Assembly (NCBI RefSeq): GCF_003018115.1
Contig: NZ_CP027457.1
Source: Escherichia coli
GTDB lineage: Bacteria; Pseudomonadota; Gammaproteobacteria; Enterobacterales; Enterobacteriaceae
Reading direction: 5' to 3' (one strand)
Length of the DNA: 64,000 nt
Part shown: in pieces, positions 25,698 through 37,126 of the stretch
Position numbering within the stretch: position 1 is the first letter of the stretch
Layout of the letters: each line of letters opens with the position of its first letter
Notes under the pieces: model-generated
The model's input: only the letters and a program-made list of their open reading frames with translations
Told to the model about the DNA's origin: nothing
Database searches by the model: none
Program-made: the position numbers and the translations under genes

Positions 25698-25992
25698 CTC
25701 TAGATCTCTTTTTTGCCTGCAAGCCCGGGTAATGCGCCCACAAGTTCTGCTTAATCGATTGAAAAAACATCTTTTTTTTAAAGATGTGTTCGATGCTGTG
25801 TACCAGTGCTCACAGAGGTCTACTTTTTCGCGAAAACGTAGATCTCTAACGCCCAACGAAAAGCATGAAAGCGATCACGAATCCCATTGGGTCGTCATGT
25901 TCTGCCGATCGCATCTTCCTATCCTCGCTCCAGGCCTGCCGCATAACCAATCAGGCTTCCTACTTACAGAATTGAGAAAAGAGGATGTGGAA

Positions 25993-29821
<3,829 letters not shown>

Positions 29822-29987
29822 TTTAATATCCCTCCGGCGAATTATGCTCACAACCTGAACTTAACAGAAAACAATCCGTTCAGGGATACGACGTTTGTAT
29901 TTTAAGAATCTGACTGCCTGACCCGACGCATTTTACCTCTCCCTATATTCATGCGTCCGGGACATAAACATAAATAAGGGCTATGAG

Positions 29988-31703
29988 ATGAATTCGTTAC
30001 AAATCTTGAGTTTTGTCGGTTTTACGCTGCTGGTGGCGATCATCACCTGGTGGAAGGTTCGCAAAACAGATACCGGATCGCAACAAGGCTATTTTCTTGC
30101 CGGACGTTCACTAAAAGCGCCGGTTATTGCCGCTTCGTTAATGTTAACGAATCTTTCCACGGAACAACTGGTTGGTCTTTCCGGGCAGGCCTACAAAAGC
30201 GGCATGTCGGTGATGGGCTGGGAAGTCACTTCAGCGGTGACGCTGATCTTCCTCGCGCTAATCTTTTTACCGCGCTATCTGAAGCGCGGCATTGCCACCA
30301 TCCCCGATTTTCTGGAGGAACGTTATGATAAAACGACGCGTATTATCATCGACTTCTGCTTCCTCATTGCCACCGGCGTCTGCTTTCTGCCGATTGTTCT
30401 CTACTCCGGCGCGTTGGCGCTCAACAGCCTGTTTCACGTCGGGGAATCGCTACAGATTTCTCACGGTGCGGCTATCTGGCTATTGGTAATTTTGCTTGGT
30501 CTGGCGGGAATTTTGTATGCGGTGATCGGCGGACTGCGCGCAATGGCAGTGGCGGACTCCATCAACGGTATTGGGCTGGTTATCGGCGGGTTGATGGTGC
30601 CGGTATTTGGCCTGATCGCGATGGGCAAGGGCAGCTTTATGCAGGGCATTGAGCAAATTACCACCGTTCACGCCGAGAAATTAAACTCAGTCGGTGGCCC
30701 GACCGATCCCTTGCCGATTGGCGCGGCATTTACCGGTTTAATTCTGGTGAACACCTTTTACTGGTGTACAAATCAGGGCATCGTGCAACGCACGCTGGCG
30801 TCAAAAAGCCTGGCGGAAGGGCAAAAGGGGGCGCTGTTAACGGCGGTGCTGAAAATGCTCGACCCGCTGGTACTGGTGCTGCCAGGGTTGATTGCGTTTC
30901 ATTTGTATCAGGATTTACCGAAAGCCGACATGGCCTACCCGACGCTGGTCAATAACGTTCTGCCAGTGCCACTGGTGGGTTTCTTCGGCGCGGTGTTATT
31001 TGGTGCGGTGATCAGTACCTTCAACGGCTTTCTGAATAGCGCCAGTACGTTATTCAGTATGGGTATTTACCGTCGCATCATTAACCAGAATGCCGAGCCG
31101 CAGCAGCTGGTCACCGTCGGGCGCAAATTTGGTTTCTTTATCGCTATCGCTTCGGTGCTGGTAGCGCCGTGGATCGCCAACGCGCCGCAGGGGCTGTATA
31201 GCTGGATGAAACAGCTCAACGGCATTTACAACGTGCCGCTGGTTACCATCATCATTATGGGCTTTTTCTTCCCGCGCATCCCGGCGCTGGCGGCAAAAGT
31301 AGCGATGGGGATTGGCATAATCAGCTACATCACCATCAACTATCTGGTGAAGTTCGACTTCCATTTCCTCTATGTGCTGGCCTGTACGTTCTGCATCAAC
31401 GTGGTCGTGATGCTGGTGATCGGTTTTATCAAACCGCGCGCCACGCCGTTCACCTTCAAAGATGCGTTTGCGGTGGACATGAAACCGTGGAAAAACGTCA
31501 AGATCGCGTCAATTGGCATCCTGTTCGCGATGATTGGCGTCTATGCCGGGCTGGCTGAATTCGGCGGCTACGGTACGCGCTGGTTAGCGATGATCAGTTA
31601 TTTCATTGCCGCCGTAGTGATTGTCTACCTGATTTTTGACAGCTGGCGGCATCGTCACGACCCAGCCGTAACCTTTACTCCCGATGCAAAGGATAGCCTA
31701 TGA
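29988..31703 (+). CDS. yidK: Sodium:solute symporter family transporter YidK
   Basis: 571-aa multi-TM ORF of the SSF family; translationally coupled to yidJ (ATGA overlap). Confidence 0.88.
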   Translation: MNSLQILSFVGFTLLVAIITWWKVRKTDTGSQQGYFLAGRSLKAPVIAASLMLTNLSTEQLVGLSGQAYKSGMSVMGWEVTSAVTLIFLALIFLPRYLKRGIATIPDFLEERYDKTTRIIIDFCFLIATGVCFLPIVLYSGALALNSLFHVGESLQISHGAAIWLLVILLGLAGILYAVIGGLRAMAVADSINGIGLVIGGLMVPVFGLIAMGKGSFMQGIEQITTVHAEKLNSVGGPTDPLPIGAAFTGLILVNTFYWCTNQGIVQRTLASKSLAEGQKGALLTAVLKMLDPLVLVLPGLIAFHLYQDLPKADMAYPTLVNNVLPVPLVGFFGAVLFGAVISTFNGFLNSASTLFSMGIYRRIINQNAEPQQLVTVGRKFGFFIAIASVLVAPWIANAPQGLYSWMKQLNGIYNVPLVTIIIMGFFFPRIPALAAKVAMGIGIISYITINYLVKFDFHFLYVLACTFCINVVVMLVIGFIKPRATPFTFKDAFAVDMKPWKNVKIASIGILFAMIGVYAGLAEFGGYGTRWLAMISYFIAAVVIVYLIFDSWRHRHDPAVTFTPDAKDSL

Positions 31704-33193
31704 AACGCCCCAATTTTCTGTTCATCATGACCGATACCCAGGCCACCAATATGGTCGGTTGCTATAGCGGTAAGCCGCTGAATACGCAAAATATTGATAG
31801 TCTGGCGGCGGAAGGTATTCGCTTTAACTCCGCCTACACCTGTTCACCGGTTTGTACACCGGCGCGCGCCGGGCTGTTTACCGGTATCTACGCTAACCAG
31901 TCCGGCCCGTGGACCAATAACGTCGCGCCAGGCAAAAACATTTCCACTATGGGGCGCTACTTTAAGGATGTCGGCTATCACACCTGTTACATCGGCAAAT
32001 GGCATCTCGACGGTCATGACTATTTCGGCACTGGCGAGTGTCCGCCGGAGTGGGACGCTGATTACTGGTTCGATGGAGCGAACTATCTTAGCGAACTGAC
32101 GGAAAAAGAGATTAGCCTGTGGCGCAATGGCCTAAACAGCGTCGAAGATTTACAGGCGAACCATATCGACGAAACCTTCACCTGGGCGCACCGCATCAGC
32201 AATCGGGCGGTGGATTTTCTGCAACAGCCCGCGCGCACCGAGGAACCCTTCCTGATGGTGGTTTCGTATGATGAGCCGCATCACCCGTTCACCTGTCCGG
32301 TGGAGTATTTAGAGAAATACGCTGATTTTTACTACGAGCTGGGCGAGAAAGCACAGGATGACCTGGCTAACAAACCGGAACATCACCGCTTATGGGCGCA
32401 GGCGATGCCATCGCCAGTCGGTGATGACGGGCTTTATCACCATCCGCTCTATTTTGCCTGTAATGACTTTGTTGATGACCAAATCGGACGGGTCATCAAT
32501 GCCTTAACGCCAGAGCAACGTGAAAATACGTGGGTTATTTATACCTCCGATCACGGCGAAATGATGGGCGCACATAAGCTGATCAGTAAAGGGGCGGCGA
32601 TGTATGACGACATCACCCGCATTCCGCTGATCATCCGTTCGCCGCAAGGGGAGCGGCGACAGGTCGATACGCCAGTCAGTCATATCGATTTACTGCCGAC
32701 AATGATGGCGCTGGCAGATATTGAAAAACCAGAGATTCTGCCGGGGGAAAATATCCTTGCAGTGAAAGAGCCACGCGGTGTAATGGTGGAATTTAACCGC
32801 TACGAGATTGAGCATGACAGCTTTGGCGGTTTTATTCCGGTGCGTTGCTGGGTGACGGATGACTTTAAACTGGTGCTCAACCTCTTCACCAGTGATGAAC
32901 TTTACGATCGCCGTAATGATCCAAATGAAATGCATAACCTGATCGATGATATCCGTTTTGCCGACGTGCGCAGCAAAATGCATGACGCCTTATTGGATTA
33001 CATGGACAAAATTCGCGATCCGTTCCGCAGTTACCAATGGAGCCTGCGTCCGTGGCGTAAAGATGCACGGCCGCGCTGGATGGGGGCGTTTCGTCCACGC
33101 CCACAAGATGGCTATTCGCCAGTGGTACGCGACTATGACACCGGCCTACCGACACAAGGGGTGAAGGTGGAAGAGAAAAAACAGAAGTTCTGA
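31700..33193 (+). CDS. yidJ: Sulfatase family protein YidJ
   Basis: 497-aa ORF MKRPNFLFIMTDTQATNMVGCYSG...CSPVCTPARAGLFTG... with the sulfatase C-x-P-x-R signature (CTPAR) that is converted to formylglycine. Confidence 0.9.
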   Translation: MKRPNFLFIMTDTQATNMVGCYSGKPLNTQNIDSLAAEGIRFNSAYTCSPVCTPARAGLFTGIYANQSGPWTNNVAPGKNISTMGRYFKDVGYHTCYIGKWHLDGHDYFGTGECPPEWDADYWFDGANYLSELTEKEISLWRNGLNSVEDLQANHIDETFTWAHRISNRAVDFLQQPARTEEPFLMVVSYDEPHHPFTCPVEYLEKYADFYYELGEKAQDDLANKPEHHRLWAQAMPSPVGDDGLYHHPLYFACNDFVDDQIGRVINALTPEQRENTWVIYTSDHGEMMGAHKLISKGAAMYDDITRIPLIIRSPQGERRQVDTPVSHIDLLPTMMALADIEKPEILPGENILAVKEPRGVMVEFNRYEIEHDSFGGFIPVRCWVTDDFKLVLNLFTSDELYDRRNDPNEMHNLIDDIRFADVRSKMHDALLDYMDKIRDPFRSYQWSLRPWRKDARPRWMGAFRPRPQDGYSPVVRDYDTGLPTQGVKVEEKKQKF

Positions 33194-33199
33194 CGATAA

Positions 33200-33232
33200 T
33201 GCCCGCTGATGATCACCCGGCGGGCATTATTC
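33200..33232. terminator. Bidirectional hairpin between yidJ and yidI
   Basis: atgcccgc ... gcgggcat inverted repeat in the convergent intergenic region. Confidence 0.5.
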
Positions 33233-33239
33233 AGGCTGC

Positions 33240-33689
33240 TTAAACCAGTGAACCGCCGGTCAGGAAGGAAAAGATAAGGAATATCAGCAAAATGCTGCAC
33301 ACGATGCCGATACCAAAAAGCAAGGTATGGAAAGCCAGCGTCCCGCCGCCAAAAACCAGCGCGCCGCGAATGCCCCAGCGATTTTCCTTACGCATACCGC
33401 CAATAAATGCGCAAAGTAGCGCAGCAATGGCCAGTGCGATACCGCTTTGATTGAGGATTTTATCGACATCTACGTCCTCTTTTTTCTCCACGGTGGTAAT
33501 TTTTTCGCCTTTTATTCCGGCGACAAGACCTCTTTTAATTTCAGCCGTTTTGTCCGCCACGATGCTTTCAAACGTTGGCGGTGGTGCGGAGAAAGGGCCG
33601 AATGAAAAGTGGATAATCCCCATCATTAAAGCGATGGCACCGAACAGCATGCCCAATGAACTGATTTTATTTTGAGCTATGATACCCAT
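33240..33689 (-). CDS. yidI: Inner membrane protein YidI
   Basis: 149-aa hydrophobic ORF at the syntenic position. Confidence 0.8.
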   Translation of the reverse strand: MGIIAQNKISSLGMLFGAIALMMGIIHFSFGPFSAPPPTFESIVADKTAEIKRGLVAGIKGEKITTVEKKEDVDVDKILNQSGIALAIAALLCAFIGGMRKENRWGIRGALVFGGGTLAFHTLLFGIGIVCSILLIFLIFSFLTGGSLV

Positions 33690-33797
33690 CTGACCTCCTT
33701 GTAGCGGATGGCAAAAGCATATCAGGAAACGGGCGGACGAAATTCTTAAAAAAAACCGCTAAAGGTAGAGCGTTAGTGAAATTGCAAAGGAGCAACA

Positions 33798-34145
33798 ATG
33801 AAAATTTCCCGCCTCGGAGAAGCGCCCGATTACCGCTTCTCGCTGGCTAATGAGCGTACTTTTCTGGCGTGGATCCGTACTGCACTAGGATTTCTGGCGG
33901 CGGGGGTTGGGCTTGATCAACTTGCGCCAGATTTCGCCACGCCCGTCATTCGTGAACTGTTGGCGTTGTTGTTGTGTCTGTTTTCCGGCGGGTTAGCGAT
34001 GTATGGCTACCTGCGCTGGTTACGCAATGAAAAAGCGATGCGTCTGAAAGAGGACCTGCCTTACACTAACAGCTTATTAATCATCAGCTTAATATTGATG
34101 GTCGTGGCGGTGATCGTTATGGGACTGGTGTTGTATGCCGGATAG
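33798..34145 (+). CDS. yidH: Inner membrane protein YidH (DUF202)
   Basis: 115-aa ORF MKISRLGEAPDYRFSLANERTFLAWIRTALGF...; overlaps yidG start. Confidence 0.8.
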   Translation: MKISRLGEAPDYRFSLANERTFLAWIRTALGFLAAGVGLDQLAPDFATPVIRELLALLLCLFSGGLAMYGYLRWLRNEKAMRLKEDLPYTNSLLIISLILMVVAVIVMGLVLYAG

Positions 34146-34497
34146 CCGCAAAGCCAGACGCATTGCCGACCCAGGACTGCAGCCGGAGCGTACATCACTG
34201 GCGTGGTTTCGTACCATGCTGGGCTACGGCGCGTTGATGGCGTTGGCTATCAAACACAACTGGCACCAGGCGGGCATGTTATTCTGGATTTCGATTGGCA
34301 TCCTCGCCATCGTGGCGCTGATCCTCTGGCACTACACCCGTAATCGCAATTTAATGGATGTCACGAATAGCGATTTTTCCCAATTTCACGTAGTCCGTGA
34401 CAAATTTTTGATCTCCCTCGCGGTGTTATCTCTCGCAATACTGTTTGCTGTAACGCATATACATCAACTTATCGTATTTATTGAGAGAGTCGCATGA
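34135..34497 (+). CDS. yidG: Inner membrane protein YidG
   Basis: 120-aa ORF MPDSRKARRIADPGLQPERTSLAWFRTMLGYGAL...; paralogous in style to YidH (both contain ERT.LAW.RT). Confidence 0.8.
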   Translation: MPDSRKARRIADPGLQPERTSLAWFRTMLGYGALMALAIKHNWHQAGMLFWISIGILAIVALILWHYTRNRNLMDVTNSDFSQFHVVRDKFLISLAVLSLAILFAVTHIHQLIVFIERVA

Positions 34498-34991
34498 CAG
34501 GAAGTCAGGTCATTGATGCTGAAGAGGACAGGCATAAACTGGTTGTAGAGTATAAGGATACTCTGCAACCTGCCGATTTTTATCACAATTTCAAACAGCG
34601 GGGCATCCGCTCCGTACAGCTTATTCCCCATCTTGAATTTGATGACCGGGGCGATATGACGGCCGCTTCGGTGACAGCAGAGCTGTGGGGGAAATTTTTA
34701 ATTGCCCTGTTTGAGTGTTGGGTGCGGGCAGATATCAGTCGTATTTCGATTGAGCTTTTTGATGCCACTTTACAAAAATGGTGTGGCAGCGAAAACCCGC
34801 ACCCGCGCCGTGACTGCCAGGCGTGCGACTGGCATCGGCTGTGTCCGCACGCTCGGGAGGAGACGCCAGACAACGTGCTTTGTGCGGGCTATCAGGCGTT
34901 TTATTCTTACTCCGCACCGCATATGCGGGTGATGCGTGATCTGATAAAGCAGCATCGTTCTCCCATGGAGCTGATGACGATGCTGCGGTGA
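34494..34991 (+). CDS. yidF: YidF, short protein resembling the C-terminal Cys-rich part of radical-SAM sulfatase maturases
   Basis: 165-aa ORF with a cysteine cluster (CQACDWHRLCPHAREETPDNVLCAGY); sits in the same locus as the sulfatase yidJ. Confidence 0.8.
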   Translation: MTGSQVIDAEEDRHKLVVEYKDTLQPADFYHNFKQRGIRSVQLIPHLEFDDRGDMTAASVTAELWGKFLIALFECWVRADISRISIELFDATLQKWCGSENPHPRRDCQACDWHRLCPHAREETPDNVLCAGYQAFYSYSAPHMRVMRDLIKQHRSPMELMTMLR

Positions 34992-36943: not shown

Positions 36944-37051
36944 TAATATTTAGACAAAACGTAAACTGTGATCGATACTCAACTATGTACTAAATACGTC
37001 AAAATTCGTGCCGAAATTGCGCGTTCTGCGCGGAACAGGTATACTTTCAGT

Positions 37052-37126
37052 GTTGACATAATACAGTGTGCTTTGCGGTTACCAGCCGCAGGCGGCTGAC
37101 GAAACCTCGCTCCGGCGGGGTTTTTT
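37052..37126 (+). ncRNA. istR: IstR-1 antisense sRNA (antitoxin of tisB); IstR-2 would start ~65 nt upstream and share the 3' end
   Basis: Promoter-like -35 TTGCGC (37017-22) and -10 TATACT (37040-45) with 17-nt spacing; transcript would start near 37052 with the 21-nt region complementary to the tisAB leader and end at a GC-rich stem plus T6 near 37121-37126, giving ~75 nt. Confidence 0.6.

What the first reader, a model, noticed from the sequence alone, without database searches (positions are those of the whole stretch)
29821..34991. Cryptic sulfatase utilisation cluster with only a short maturase-like fragment
Seen in sequence: AraC regulator (yidL), Na+/solute symporter (yidK) and a sulfatase with the CxPxR formylglycine signature (yidJ, CTPAR) form a unit; yidF nearby encodes only ~165 aa with a cysteine cluster resembling the C-terminal part of radical-SAM sulfatase maturases. 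An active sulfatase needs formylglycine generation, so whether this locus is functional depends on a maturase encoded elsewhere or on yidF acting in an unexpected way. This is conserved backbone, so of modest novelty.
Basis: inference. Interest (0 to 1): 0.2.

Follow-up and report, generated by a model that had tools for sequence, protein, structure and literature searches.

The report
Sulfatase operon with eroded maturase gene
This is the well-annotated E. coli yidL/yidKJ/yidHGF locus: an intact sugar-type transporter and cytoplasmic sulfatase whose own activating enzyme (YidF) has lost its catalytic parts, yet the 165-residue remnant is still kept by natural selection in many enteric bacteria.

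Summary
The window is E. coli chromosome. It carries yidL (AraC regulator), yidK (Na+/solute symporter), yidJ (S1 sulfatase with CTPAR and all catalytic residues, no signal peptide) and a 165-aa YidF that is homologous to anaerobic sulfatase maturases (TIGR03942, E 2e-21; predicted fold best matches anSMEcpe).

YidF is not simply a C-terminal fragment.
- About 25 other Enterobacteriaceae species have a 367-376-aa YidF with every catalytic motif.
- The full-length gene has the same start (MTGC...) and the same ATGA overlap with yidG.
- E. coli YidF keeps that start but has two in-frame internal deletions. These remove the CX3CX2C/SAM-binding core and the Aux I half of the SPASM domain.
- Only the four Aux II cysteines and a near-invariant C-terminal tail remain, so it cannot make formylglycine.

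aslB, a full-length maturase, lies 129 kb away in a 99.9%-identical genome.

The short form is not a neutral pseudogene.
- It is open in about 35 species.
- Its deletion junctions differ between lineages.
- dN/dS is 0.13-0.26.

It travels with yidH-yidG (DUF202 membrane proteins) even where the sulfatase is lost. Some lineages have deleted it completely.

The parts
28928..29821 (-). yidL, AraC-family regulator, divergent from yidK.
   Evidence: Pfam HTH_AraC 5.3e-18, HTH_18 2.2e-17, AraC_binding 6.6e-7. RefSeq annotation in a 99.9%-identical genome.
29822..29987 (.). yidL-yidK divergent intergenic region, the presumed control region.
   Evidence: Position between divergent genes. No convincing sigma-70 match in the simple scan. 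The regulatory role is inferred.
29988..31703 (+). yidK, sodium:solute symporter family transporter. Its stop overlaps the yidJ start by 4 nt.
   Evidence: Pfam SSF 4e-50 over residues 35-442. Coordinates.
31700..33193 (+). yidJ, family S1 (formylglycine-dependent) Cys-type sulfatase with no signal peptide, so predicted cytoplasmic.
   Evidence: Pfam Sulfatase 3.5e-71 and SGSH_C 9.3e-17. Best PDB relative 9IHK S1_30A, 3.9e-46; residue 2 aligns to residues 25-26 of secreted homologs. Catalytic residues present. dN/dS 0.047 within Escherichia.
31853..31867 (+). Codons for C52-T-P-A-R56, the sulfatase signature. C52 is the residue that must be converted to formylglycine.
   Evidence: Motif search on the translation. 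It aligns to SPVSTPSRA / TGLCSPSRA of solved sulfatases.
33240..33689 (-). yidI, a small predicted membrane protein on the opposite strand. It splits the ancestral yidK-J-H-G-F gene string. Probably not functionally part of the system.
   Evidence: No Pfam family. Present only in Escherichia and a few Citrobacter/Salmonella loci; elsewhere the yidJ-to-yidH gap is 13-100 bp.
33798..34145 (+). yidH, DUF202 inner-membrane protein. It overlaps yidG by 11 nt.
   Evidence: Pfam DUF202 2.8e-19. 81-99% identical in all 63 related loci, dN/dS 0.02-0.08.
34135..34497 (+). yidG, second DUF202 membrane protein. Its stop overlaps the yidF start (ATGA).
   Evidence: Pfam DUF202 7.1e-12. Sequence gtcgcATGAcagg at 34489-34501. 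The same overlap occurs in most related loci.
34494..34991 (+). yidF, a 165-aa derivative of an anaerobic sulfatase maturase (anSME) formed by in-frame deletions. It lacks the radical-SAM core and the Aux I half of the SPASM domain.
   Evidence: TIGR03942 2.2e-21 but 76 bits against a cut-off of 349. Alignment to full-length orthologs. AlphaFold pLDDT 90.1 and top fold hit anSMEcpe. dN/dS 0.175.
34815..34883 (+). Codons for C108, C111, C117 and C130, the equivalents of the four Aux II [4Fe-4S] ligands of anSMEcpe (C317, C320, C326, C348).
   Evidence: Residue-by-residue alignment to 4K36. Ligand identities from PMC5682303 and PMC5715301. The full CCCC set is kept in 25 of 34 short or intermediate-length forms; 8 C. 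freundii-complex forms have CCYC with a spare Cys nearby.
34911..34988 (+). C-terminal tail SAPHMRVMRDLIKQHRSPMELMTMLR, the most conserved part of YidF in both short and full-length forms.
   Evidence: Invariant columns P142, M144-L150, R155-P157 and L160. Tail dN/dS 0.05-0.17 with ordinary dS of 0.41-0.73.

Best explanation
The locus is the Escherichia version of an Enterobacteriaceae operon, yidL | yidK-yidJ-yidH-yidG-yidF.

Transport and hydrolysis. YidK imports an unidentified sulfated small molecule, most likely a sulfated sugar. Cytoplasmic YidJ, a Cys-type S1 sulfatase, removes the sulfate. The AraC-type regulator YidL controls expression. All of this paragraph is inferred from family membership.

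Ancestral maturase. The operon originally carried its own radical-SAM maturase: a full-length YidF of ~370 aa, 46% identical to AslB. It was translationally coupled to the two DUF202 membrane proteins YidH and YidG. This is shown by comparison.

What happened in Escherichia. Two in-frame deletions removed the CX3CX2C cluster, the GGE SAM-binding motif, three of the four Aux I cysteines and the catalytic Asp. A small further deletion removed the fourth Aux I cysteine. E. coli YidF therefore cannot perform the radical chemistry that makes formylglycine. The lost motifs are shown by sequence; the loss of activity is inferred from established anSME mechanism.

How YidJ is activated. YidJ is still under strong purifying selection. 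It is therefore presumably matured in trans, either by AslB (or YdeM) or by the still-unidentified Cys-type maturation activity reported for E. coli aslB/ydeM mutants. This is inferred.

What the remnant is. YidF keeps the ancestral start codon, the last barrel elements, the four Aux II cysteines and the C-terminal helices. It is a folded protein maintained by selection. Most likely it is a non-catalytic, single-metal-site or Fe-S accessory protein co-expressed with YidG/YidH. It is useful but dispensable, because some lineages have deleted it. This is inferred.
For: Gene content and domains.

YidJ:
- Catalytic residues present and no signal peptide.
- dN/dS 0.047.

Homology of YidF to anSMEs.

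Full-length orthologs at the same position:
- They share the MTGC start and the ATGA overlap with yidG.
- All 15 full-length YidF genes that sit next to yidJ have the complete set of 11 cluster cysteines, plus GGE and Asp.
- All six Escherichia forms and the window have none of the radical-SAM or Aux I ligands but keep all four Aux II ligands.

Catalytic-motif integrity is associated with presence of yidJ: 15/7 versus 11/30, Fisher p = 0.003, not corrected for phylogeny.

Selection on the short form:
- Pooled dN/dS is 0.175 in Escherichia, 0.20 in the C. freundii complex plus Salmonella, and 0.26 in Klebsiella/Raoultella.
- Bootstrap upper bounds are at most 0.41 in every sub-region, and dS is normal.
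- A neutral 165-codon ORF would stay stop-free with probability below 3% per lineage at the observed synonymous divergence.

N-terminal junction lengths differ between genera (20 to ~113 residues before the conserved QP).

The AlphaFold model is confident, pLDDT 90.1 and pTM 0.86.

aslB and aslA are annotated 129 kb away in strain F9792.

Against: - No experiment here shows that YidF is expressed or binds metal, or that YidJ is active or carries formylglycine.
- The AlphaFold confidence may be inflated, because the alignment contained full-length anSMEs.
- Short YidF evolves about 2-8 times faster at non-synonymous sites than its neighbours (dN 0.09 against 0.009-0.026 in Escherichia), so constraint is weak.
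- Enterobacter kobei and a Salmonella enterica genome keep yidH-yidG with no yidF at all, so whatever YidF does is dispensable.
- One E. albertii strain has a frameshifted yidF.
- AslB acting on YidJ is an assumption. I could not read the primary paper on the aslB/ydeM mutants.
- The substrate of YidK/YidJ is unknown.
Confidence: 0.6

Rival explanations
1. YidF is simply a decaying pseudogene remnant with no function. Its open reading frame persists by chance, or only because deletion has not yet removed it.
For: - It has lost every catalytic element.
- It evolves much faster than its neighbours, and short forms have long branches.
- A graded series exists: full-length, then lesioned full-length, then 249/220/192 aa, then ~165 aa, then absent.
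- There are occasional frameshifted alleles.
Against: - dN/dS is 0.13-0.26 in three clades whose members all share the truncated state, so the divergence measured accrued after truncation.
- The ORF is intact from the yidG-coupled start in about 35 species. Neutral survival is below 3% per lineage.
- The deletions are all in frame despite differing junctions.
- The Aux II cysteines and the C-terminal tail are almost invariant.
Confidence: 0.12
2. The short YidF still takes part in activating YidJ without radical-SAM chemistry. It could act as a chaperone or adaptor that holds the unfolded CTPAR segment for another maturase, or as a component of the unidentified third FGly-forming system of E. 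coli.
For: - In Escherichia, S. enterica subsp. arizonae, K. oxytoca, K. spallanzanii, Superficieibacter and one unclassified Enterobacteriaceae MAG (UBA5654), the short form coexists with an intact, constrained yidJ.
- The retained region includes parts that line the substrate cavity in anSMEs. This is my own knowledge of the 4K36-4K39 structures and was not tested here.
- A third maturation system is still unidentified (PMC8379841).
Against: - 24 of the 34 short or intermediate-length forms, including the whole C. freundii complex, sit in loci that have lost yidJ, yidK and yidL. They are still under purifying selection, dN/dS about 0.2.
- Nothing in the sequence suggests an alternative oxidising chemistry.
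Confidence: 0.07
3. The whole cluster is cryptic in E. coli. With no cognate maturase, YidJ is never activated, and yidKJ is on its way to being lost.
For: - The dedicated maturase is lost.
- yidJKL has been lost repeatedly in related genera, and yidJ-yidK are missing from one E. albertii strain.
- No substrate or phenotype was found in the searchable literature.
Against: - In Escherichia, YidJ has dN/dS 0.047, as constrained as emrD. YidK was not put through the dN/dS analysis but is 98-99% identical in protein sequence across the Escherichia loci.
- The locus is present in 5421 of 5426 complete E. coli genomes, at 80% or more coverage in 5100.
- All catalytic residues are intact.
- aslB is present in the genome.
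- One study reports yidJ and yidL enriched in gut-associated clade II Escherichia (PMC7716201).
Confidence: 0.1

Closest known systems
Anaerobic sulfatase-maturating enzymes (anSME; AslB/AtsB/ChuR, anSMEcpe PDB 4K36-4K39; NCBIfam TIGR03942)
   Same: - YidF is a true homolog. It matches TIGR03942 at E 2e-21 and its predicted fold best matches anSMEcpe.
- Full-length orthologs at the same locus are 46% identical to E. coli AslB.
- It keeps the four Aux II cysteine ligands and the C-terminal helices.
   Different: - It lacks the CX3CX2C radical-SAM cluster, the GGE SAM-binding motif, all four Aux I ligands and the catalytic Asp.
- It scores 76 bits against a family cut-off of 349.
- It is 165 aa long instead of about 370.
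- It cannot work like an anSME.
Sulfatase plus cognate maturase gene pairs (E. coli aslA-aslB, ydeN-ydeM; Klebsiella atsB-atsA)
   Same: The ancestral yidK-yidJ-yidH-yidG-yidF string is a sulfatase with its own anSME in one operon. More distant anSMEs also sit beside sulfatase genes.
   Different: - Two DUF202 membrane-protein genes lie between the sulfatase and the maturase. They were not seen at the two more distant anSME loci I inspected.
- The sulfatase is cytoplasmic and paired with an SSF importer.
- In Escherichia the maturase is reduced to a remnant.
Family S1 formylglycine-dependent sulfatases (e.g. PDB 9IHK S1_30A, 6PT4 exo-2S-iota-carrageenan sulfatase, 5G2V GlcNAc-6-sulfatase)
   Same: YidJ has the full sulfatase domain, the C-x-P-x-R signature and the catalytic Lys, His and Asp residues.
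   Different: - It has no signal peptide.
- The substrate is unknown.
- Position 13 is Thr where many sulfatases have a second acidic or Gln metal ligand. This was not assessed further.
Pseudoenzymes and reduced SPASM ('Twitch'-type) auxiliary-cluster domains
   Same: It is a catalytically dead derivative of an enzyme, retained under selection, with a single auxiliary-cluster site. The concept comes from general knowledge.
   Different: Twitch domains remain fused to an active radical-SAM core and keep the Aux I-equivalent cluster (my own knowledge). Here the core is gone and the Aux II site is the one kept. I found no description of such a stand-alone remnant in the searchable library.

Membership tests
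Anaerobic sulfatase maturase (radical SAM / SPASM, TIGR03942) - YidF | CX3CX2C motif binding the radical-SAM [4Fe-4S] cluster near the N-terminus | tested here: not met
   The columns of C15, C19 and C22 of the 370-aa ortholog are gaps in the window's YidF and in all Escherichia forms. There is no C...C..C in the first 80 residues.
Anaerobic sulfatase maturase (radical SAM / SPASM, TIGR03942) - YidF | GGE motif and radical-SAM partial TIM-barrel core that bind S-adenosylmethionine | tested here: not met
   The GGE columns are deleted. Pfam Radical_SAM is not detected. No remnant of residues 1-125 of the ortholog is found anywhere in the window by tblastn.
Anaerobic sulfatase maturase (radical SAM / SPASM, TIGR03942) - YidF | SPASM domain with Aux I ligands (anSMEcpe C255, C261, C276, C330) and the adjacent catalytic Asp | tested here: not met
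   All four Aux I columns and the Asp column are gaps in E. coli YidF. Pfam SPASM is not detected. Ligand identities come from PMC5682303.
Anaerobic sulfatase maturase (radical SAM / SPASM, TIGR03942) - YidF | Aux II ligands (anSMEcpe C317, C320, C326, C348) | tested here: met
   C108, C111, C117 and C130 align to them.
Anaerobic sulfatase maturase (radical SAM / SPASM, TIGR03942) - YidF | Whole-protein score above the curated family cut-off | tested here: not met
   76.3 bits against a cut-off of 349.45.
Anaerobic sulfatase maturase (radical SAM / SPASM, TIGR03942) - YidF | Converts Cys or Ser of the sulfatase signature to formylglycine | not testable with these tools
   Needs an enzymatic assay or mass spectrometry of YidJ.
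Family S1 formylglycine-dependent sulfatase - YidJ | Sulfatase (alkaline-phosphatase-like) domain | tested here: met
   PF00884 at 3.5e-71 over profile positions 1-301 of 301. 74 solved sulfatases match at E <= 1e-10.
Family S1 formylglycine-dependent sulfatase - YidJ | (C/S)-x-P-x-R signature with the Cys or Ser to be modified | tested here: met
   C52-T-P-A-R56, aligned to the signature of 9IHK and 6PT4.
Family S1 formylglycine-dependent sulfatase - YidJ | Conserved metal-binding and catalytic residues (N-terminal Asp, Lys-x-His, His, Asp-His, Lys) | tested here: met
   D12, K100/H102, H194, D284/H285 and K297 are present and aligned. The second N-terminal ligand position is Thr13.
Family S1 formylglycine-dependent sulfatase - YidJ | Formylglycine actually present; sulfate-ester hydrolysis | not testable with these tools
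   Needs biochemistry.
Sodium:solute symporter family - YidK | SSF transmembrane domain | tested here: met
   PF00474 at 4e-50, profile positions 1-405 of 406.
AraC/XylS regulators - YidL | C-terminal double HTH plus N-terminal AraC-type ligand-binding domain | tested here: met
   PF00165 at 5.3e-18, PF12833 at 2.2e-17, PF02311 at 6.6e-7.
DUF202 / YidH family - YidH and YidG | DUF202 membrane domain | tested here: met
   PF02656 at 2.8e-19 for YidH and 7.1e-12 for YidG.

The most novel reading that the evidence does not exclude
The 165-aa YidF is a stand-alone, catalytically dead radical-SAM remnant that has been recruited for a new job. It would be a single Aux II-type Fe-S or metal-site protein, made in fixed ratio with the DUF202 membrane proteins YidG and YidH, and acting independently of formylglycine chemistry. 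Possible roles include redox or metal sensing, or control of a small membrane channel. The same reduction (loss of the radical-SAM core and the Aux I half, retention of Aux II and the tail) has been selected repeatedly in different enterobacterial lineages.
Probability: 0.3. Interest if true: 0.5.

Novelty: new variant of a known kind. Interest (0 to 1): 0.3.

Why it matters
The genes are ordinary, annotated E. coli backbone, and a sulfatase with a partner maturase is a textbook arrangement.

The comparison adds one clean natural example of how a radical-SAM enzyme is dismantled. In-frame deletions strip the catalytic core but spare one cluster-binding half, which selection then keeps.

This is practically useful in two ways.
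- It warns annotators that the RefSeq name 'radical SAM protein' for the 165-aa YidF is misleading.
- It sharpens an old open question: which activity matures Cys-type sulfatases in E. coli. YidJ is a native, constrained Cys-type sulfatase whose cis-encoded maturase is provably dead. That makes it a natural reporter for genetic dissection of AslB, YdeM and the unidentified system.

It also links the uncharacterised DUF202 proteins YidG and YidH to a sulfatase operon.

Tried and rejected
- **Pfam on YidF.** No family at E <= 0.01. Homology appeared only with NCBIfam, PDB and profile searches.
- **Literature.**
  - No paper holds both 'yidF' and 'sulfatase'.
  - Most 'yidF' hits are unrelated strings or typos for ydiF.
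  - An old microarray table calls yidF a 'predicted transcriptional regulator'. I found no sequence support for that.
  - The key FEBS Letters 2007 paper on aslB/ydeM mutants is not held, so I cite it only through PMC8379841 and reference lists.
- **DUF202 literature.** It gave nothing on bacterial function. YidH was a D-alanine exporter candidate in an overexpression screen, but the transport assay did not confirm it.
- **Promoter and terminator scan.** Fewer promoter-like sites than in shuffles and nothing interpretable.
- **Rfam.** Only istR, outside the cluster.
- **Is the DUF202-anSME pairing general?** Two more distant anSME loci lack DUF202 genes. On this small sample the pairing looks particular to the YidHGF clade.
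- **Frameshifted 145-aa E. coli YidF variants.** They are many different rare alleles, mostly singletons from read-level or long-read assemblies. I treat them as sequencing errors or sporadic mutants, not as a common state.
- **Could conservation of the tail reflect a DNA- or RNA-level constraint, or the neighbouring emrD terminator?** Rejected. dS in the tail is ordinary, and in Citrobacter other genes lie between yidF and emrD.
- **Single origin of the short form.** Not supported. An NJ tree places the Leclercia/Silvania short forms next to full-length Leclercia, apart from the large fast-evolving clade. That tree rests on 146 columns and is open to long-branch effects, so the number of independent events (at least 2, probably more from the junction classes) is uncertain.


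Full report
**What is in the window**

The region is E. coli chromosome. A 6.1-kb query covering it matches 5421 of 5426 complete E. coli genomes at 95% identity or better, and 5100 of them over at least 80% of its length. The best record (strain F9792, 99.9% identical) annotates the following order: a PTS EIICB gene, a 6-phospho-alpha-glucosidase gene, then yidL (-), yidK, yidJ, yidI (-), yidH, yidG, yidF, and emrD (-).

In window coordinates:

| Gene | Coordinates | Strand |
|---|---|---|
| yidL | 28928-29821 | - |
| yidK | 29988-31703 | + |
| yidJ | 31700-33193 | + |
| yidI | 33240-33689 | - |
| yidH | 33798-34145 | + |
| yidG | 34135-34497 | + |
| yidF | 34494-34991 | + |

- Pfam confirms an AraC regulator, an SSF symporter (4e-50), a sulfatase (3.5e-71) and two DUF202 membrane proteins. 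It finds nothing for YidI or YidF.

**YidJ**

- YidJ has the signature C52-T-P-A-R56. It also has D12, K100/H102, H194, D284/H285 and K297, which align with the catalytic residues of solved S1 sulfatases.
- Its residue 2 aligns with residues 25-26 of secreted homologs. It therefore has no signal peptide and should be cytoplasmic, which fits an importer gene overlapping it by 4 nt.
- Its closest solved relatives are carbohydrate sulfatases: 9IHK S1_30A at 3.9e-46, an iota-carrageenan exo-2S sulfatase, and a GlcNAc-6-sulfatase.
- Within Escherichia its dN/dS is 0.047, the same range as emrD. It behaves as a working gene, not a relic.

**YidF is homologous to maturases, but is more than a C-terminal fragment**

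- NCBIfam's anaerobic sulfatase maturase model matches at E 2.2e-21, but at 76 bits against a cut-off of 349, and in two separate stretches.
- Against anSMEcpe (PDB 4K36), residues 29-95 align to 177-246 and residues 105-152 align to 314-370. About 65 internal residues are therefore missing, as well as the first ~160.
- C108, C111, C117 and C130 align with C317, C320, C326 and C348 of anSMEcpe. These are the four ligands of the surface Aux II [4Fe-4S] cluster. The Aux I ligands are C255, C261, C276 and C330 (PMC5682303 and PMC5715301).
- An AlphaFold model built on a 90-sequence alignment is confident (pLDDT 90.1, pTM 0.86). Its only significant PDB matches are the anSMEcpe structures (probability 1.00, TM 0.65 normalised to the query).
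- That confidence may be helped by the full-length homologs in the alignment.

**Where the remnant came from**

A protein search found ~165-178-aa YidF proteins in Escherichia, Citrobacter, Klebsiella, Leclercia, Superficieibacter and Silvania, at 40-50% identity to the E. coli protein. The C-terminal tail is almost invariant.

An exhaustive profile search then found longer relatives of 310-363 aa that carry the same tail but have degenerate radical-SAM motifs.

A scan of one genome per species returned 63 loci in Enterobacteriaceae.
- Every locus has yidH and yidG immediately upstream.
- About 25 species carry a 367-376-aa YidF. It begins MTGCQVMAKPASSRCNLxCRYCFY, has GGEPTL and a complete SPASM domain, and usually starts at the same ATGA overlap with the yidG stop codon.
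- The E. coli protein begins MTGSQVID and uses the same overlap. It has therefore kept the ancestral start and reading frame, and lost two internal blocks.
- A column-by-column table shows that Escherichia forms have none of the three radical-SAM cysteines, no GGE, none of the four Aux I cysteines and no catalytic Asp. They keep all four Aux II cysteines.
- tblastn finds no leftover of the N-terminal domain anywhere in the 64-kb window.

From established anSME mechanism, such a protein cannot cleave S-adenosylmethionine or oxidise Cys52.

**The ancestral operon**

In most genera with yidJ, the gap from yidJ to yidH is 13-100 bp on the same strand. The ancestral arrangement was therefore yidK-yidJ-yidH-yidG-yidF, with yidL divergent. 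yidI interrupts it on the opposite strand only in Escherichia and a few Citrobacter and Salmonella loci.

Full-length YidF is 46% identical to E. coli AslB over its whole length.

YidF state against presence of yidJ:

| YidF catalytic motifs | yidJ present | yidJ absent |
|---|---|---|
| All intact | 15 | 7 |
| Lesioned or truncated | 11 | 30 |

- All 15 full-length YidF genes next to yidJ have every catalytic motif intact.
- Among the 12 full-length-sized genes in loci without yidJ, five carry lesions: GGE changed to DGE, GGD or EGE; an Aux I Cys changed to Tyr or Phe; or 14-23-aa SPASM deletions.
- Fisher p = 0.003, not corrected for phylogeny.

This is what one expects if YidF was YidJ's dedicated maturase. 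Escherichia, S. enterica subsp. arizonae, K. oxytoca, K. spallanzanii, Superficieibacter and one unclassified Enterobacteriaceae MAG (UBA5654) are the exceptions: the sulfatase stays but the maturase is gutted.

**Is the remnant a pseudogene?**

Three results argue against it.

1. *The ORF is intact.* It runs from the yidG-coupled start in about 35 species with short or intermediate forms. Only one E. albertii strain is frameshifted. At the observed synonymous divergence, a neutral 165-codon frame would stay free of stops with probability below 3% per lineage, counting substitutions alone.
2. *dN/dS is well below 1* in clades whose members all share the truncated state. The measured divergence therefore post-dates truncation.

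| Clade or gene | Pooled Nei-Gojobori dN/dS |
|---|---|
| Short YidF, Escherichia | 0.175 |
| Short YidF, C. freundii complex + Salmonella | 0.20 |
| Short YidF, Klebsiella/Raoultella | 0.26 |
| Full-length YidF | 0.10-0.16 |
| YidH | 0.02-0.08 |

   Bootstrap upper limits are at most 0.41 in each of three sub-regions. The tail has dN/dS 0.05-0.17 with dS 0.41-0.73.
3. *The deletions are all in frame although their junctions differ.* The stretch from the start to the conserved QP is:
   - 26 residues in Escherichia, the C. freundii complex and Salmonella;
   - 39 in the K. oxytoca group;
   - 35 in K. pneumoniae;
   - 30 in Raoultella;
   - 32 in Superficieibacter;
   - 20-27 in Silvania;
   - 21 in Leclercia adecarboxylata;
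   - 42 in one C. amalonaticus, which still has CX3CX2C;
   - about 85 and about 113 in two intermediates.

   A distance tree puts the Leclercia/Silvania short forms beside full-length Leclercia, apart from the other short forms. That suggests at least two origins. The tree is weak, resting on 146 columns with long branches.

Selection on the remnant is nevertheless weak, and the gene is dispensable.
- dN is 3-10 times that of yidG and yidH.
- Enterobacter kobei and a Salmonella enterica genome retain yidH-yidG with no yidF.

**What the remnant goes with**

- 24 of the 34 short or intermediate-length forms sit in loci that have lost yidJ, yidK and yidL. These include all C. freundii-complex species sampled. 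Whatever the remnant does is therefore not tied to YidJ.
- It is always next to, and usually translationally coupled with, yidG.
- Two more distant anSME loci lack DUF202 genes. On this small sample the pairing looks particular to this clade.
- I found nothing in the literature that explains bacterial DUF202 proteins.

**How YidJ is probably activated**

In strain F9792, aslB (411 aa, 'anaerobic sulfatase maturase') and aslA lie 129 kb from yidF.

[quoted passage not shown] I could not read the primary mutant study.

The most economical reading is trans-maturation by one of these. Such redundancy would also explain why the operon's own maturase could erode. This step is inferred, not shown.

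**Comparison with what is known, and verdict**

- The locus is a known, annotated one. It belongs to a known kind: sulfatase plus transporter plus regulator plus anSME.
- YidF fails four of the five sequence-based defining features of an anSME. It should not be called a radical SAM protein, although RefSeq does so.
- The new elements are modest but real:
  - a dated series of erosion states of a radical-SAM maturase;
  - repeated in-frame loss of the catalytic parts;
  - retention under selection of the Aux II half and C-terminal tail;
  - a conserved link to DUF202 proteins.
I raise it slightly, to 0.3. The reason is that YidJ offers a native reporter for the unresolved E. coli Cys-type maturation activity, and the remnant is a candidate pseudoenzyme.

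Noticed in passing
L002 8544-12389; L071 4708-6027; L072 5823-8426: In Citrobacter, C. koseri and Enterobacter kobei, a dsdA-like PALP gene sits convergent right after yidF or yidG, with a GntP permease and a LysR regulator in Citrobacter. Separately, a table in PMC12363166 states that YidF overexpression boosts D-serine resistance. PMC10299036 also picked YidH as a D-alanine exporter candidate, which its transport assay did not confirm. This may be coincidence.
   Followed up: no
L071 4001-4708; L073 4001-4716: Enterobacter kobei and one Salmonella enterica genome keep yidH-yidG but have no yidF at all. Only 7 and 27 bp separate yidG from the next convergent gene.
   Followed up: partly
L017 2784-4756: In E. 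albertii NBRC 107761, yidK and yidJ are missing, yidL is reduced to its last ~60 codons, and yidF is frameshifted (the space after yidG is 11 bp shorter).
   Followed up: partly
L051 7001-7456: In Leclercia adecarboxylata NCTC13032, the middle of the short yidF reads out of frame and then returns to frame, so the conserved tail is still encoded. It could be a compensated frameshift or an assembly error.
   Followed up: no
window 33240-33689 (-): yidI is a 149-aa predicted membrane protein with no Pfam family. It lies on the opposite strand between yidJ and yidH only in Escherichia and a few Citrobacter/Salmonella loci, where it splits the otherwise contiguous yidK-J-H-G-F string.
   Followed up: partly
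window 25732-28931: There is an ORF for a PTS EIICB-type transporter and an intact 440-aa 6-phospho-alpha-glucosidase just upstream of yidL. From memory, E. coli K-12 has a disrupted glv locus here. This was not checked.
   Followed up: no
window 36997-37126 (+): The istR antitoxin RNA (Rfam RF01400, 144.8 bits) lies beyond emrD. tisB and the small protein ysdE are annotated beside it in the matching RefSeq record.
   Followed up: no
L038, L041, L042, L052, L053, L057 (yidF at about 7001-7680 in each): Several full-length-sized YidF genes in loci without yidJ (Kosakonia species, isolate RIT691, a soil MAG) carry early lesions in catalytic motifs. Examples are GGE changed to DGE, GGD or EGE, Aux I Cys changed to Tyr or Phe, and 14-23-aa SPASM deletions. 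These are snapshots of the first steps of the erosion.
   Followed up: partly
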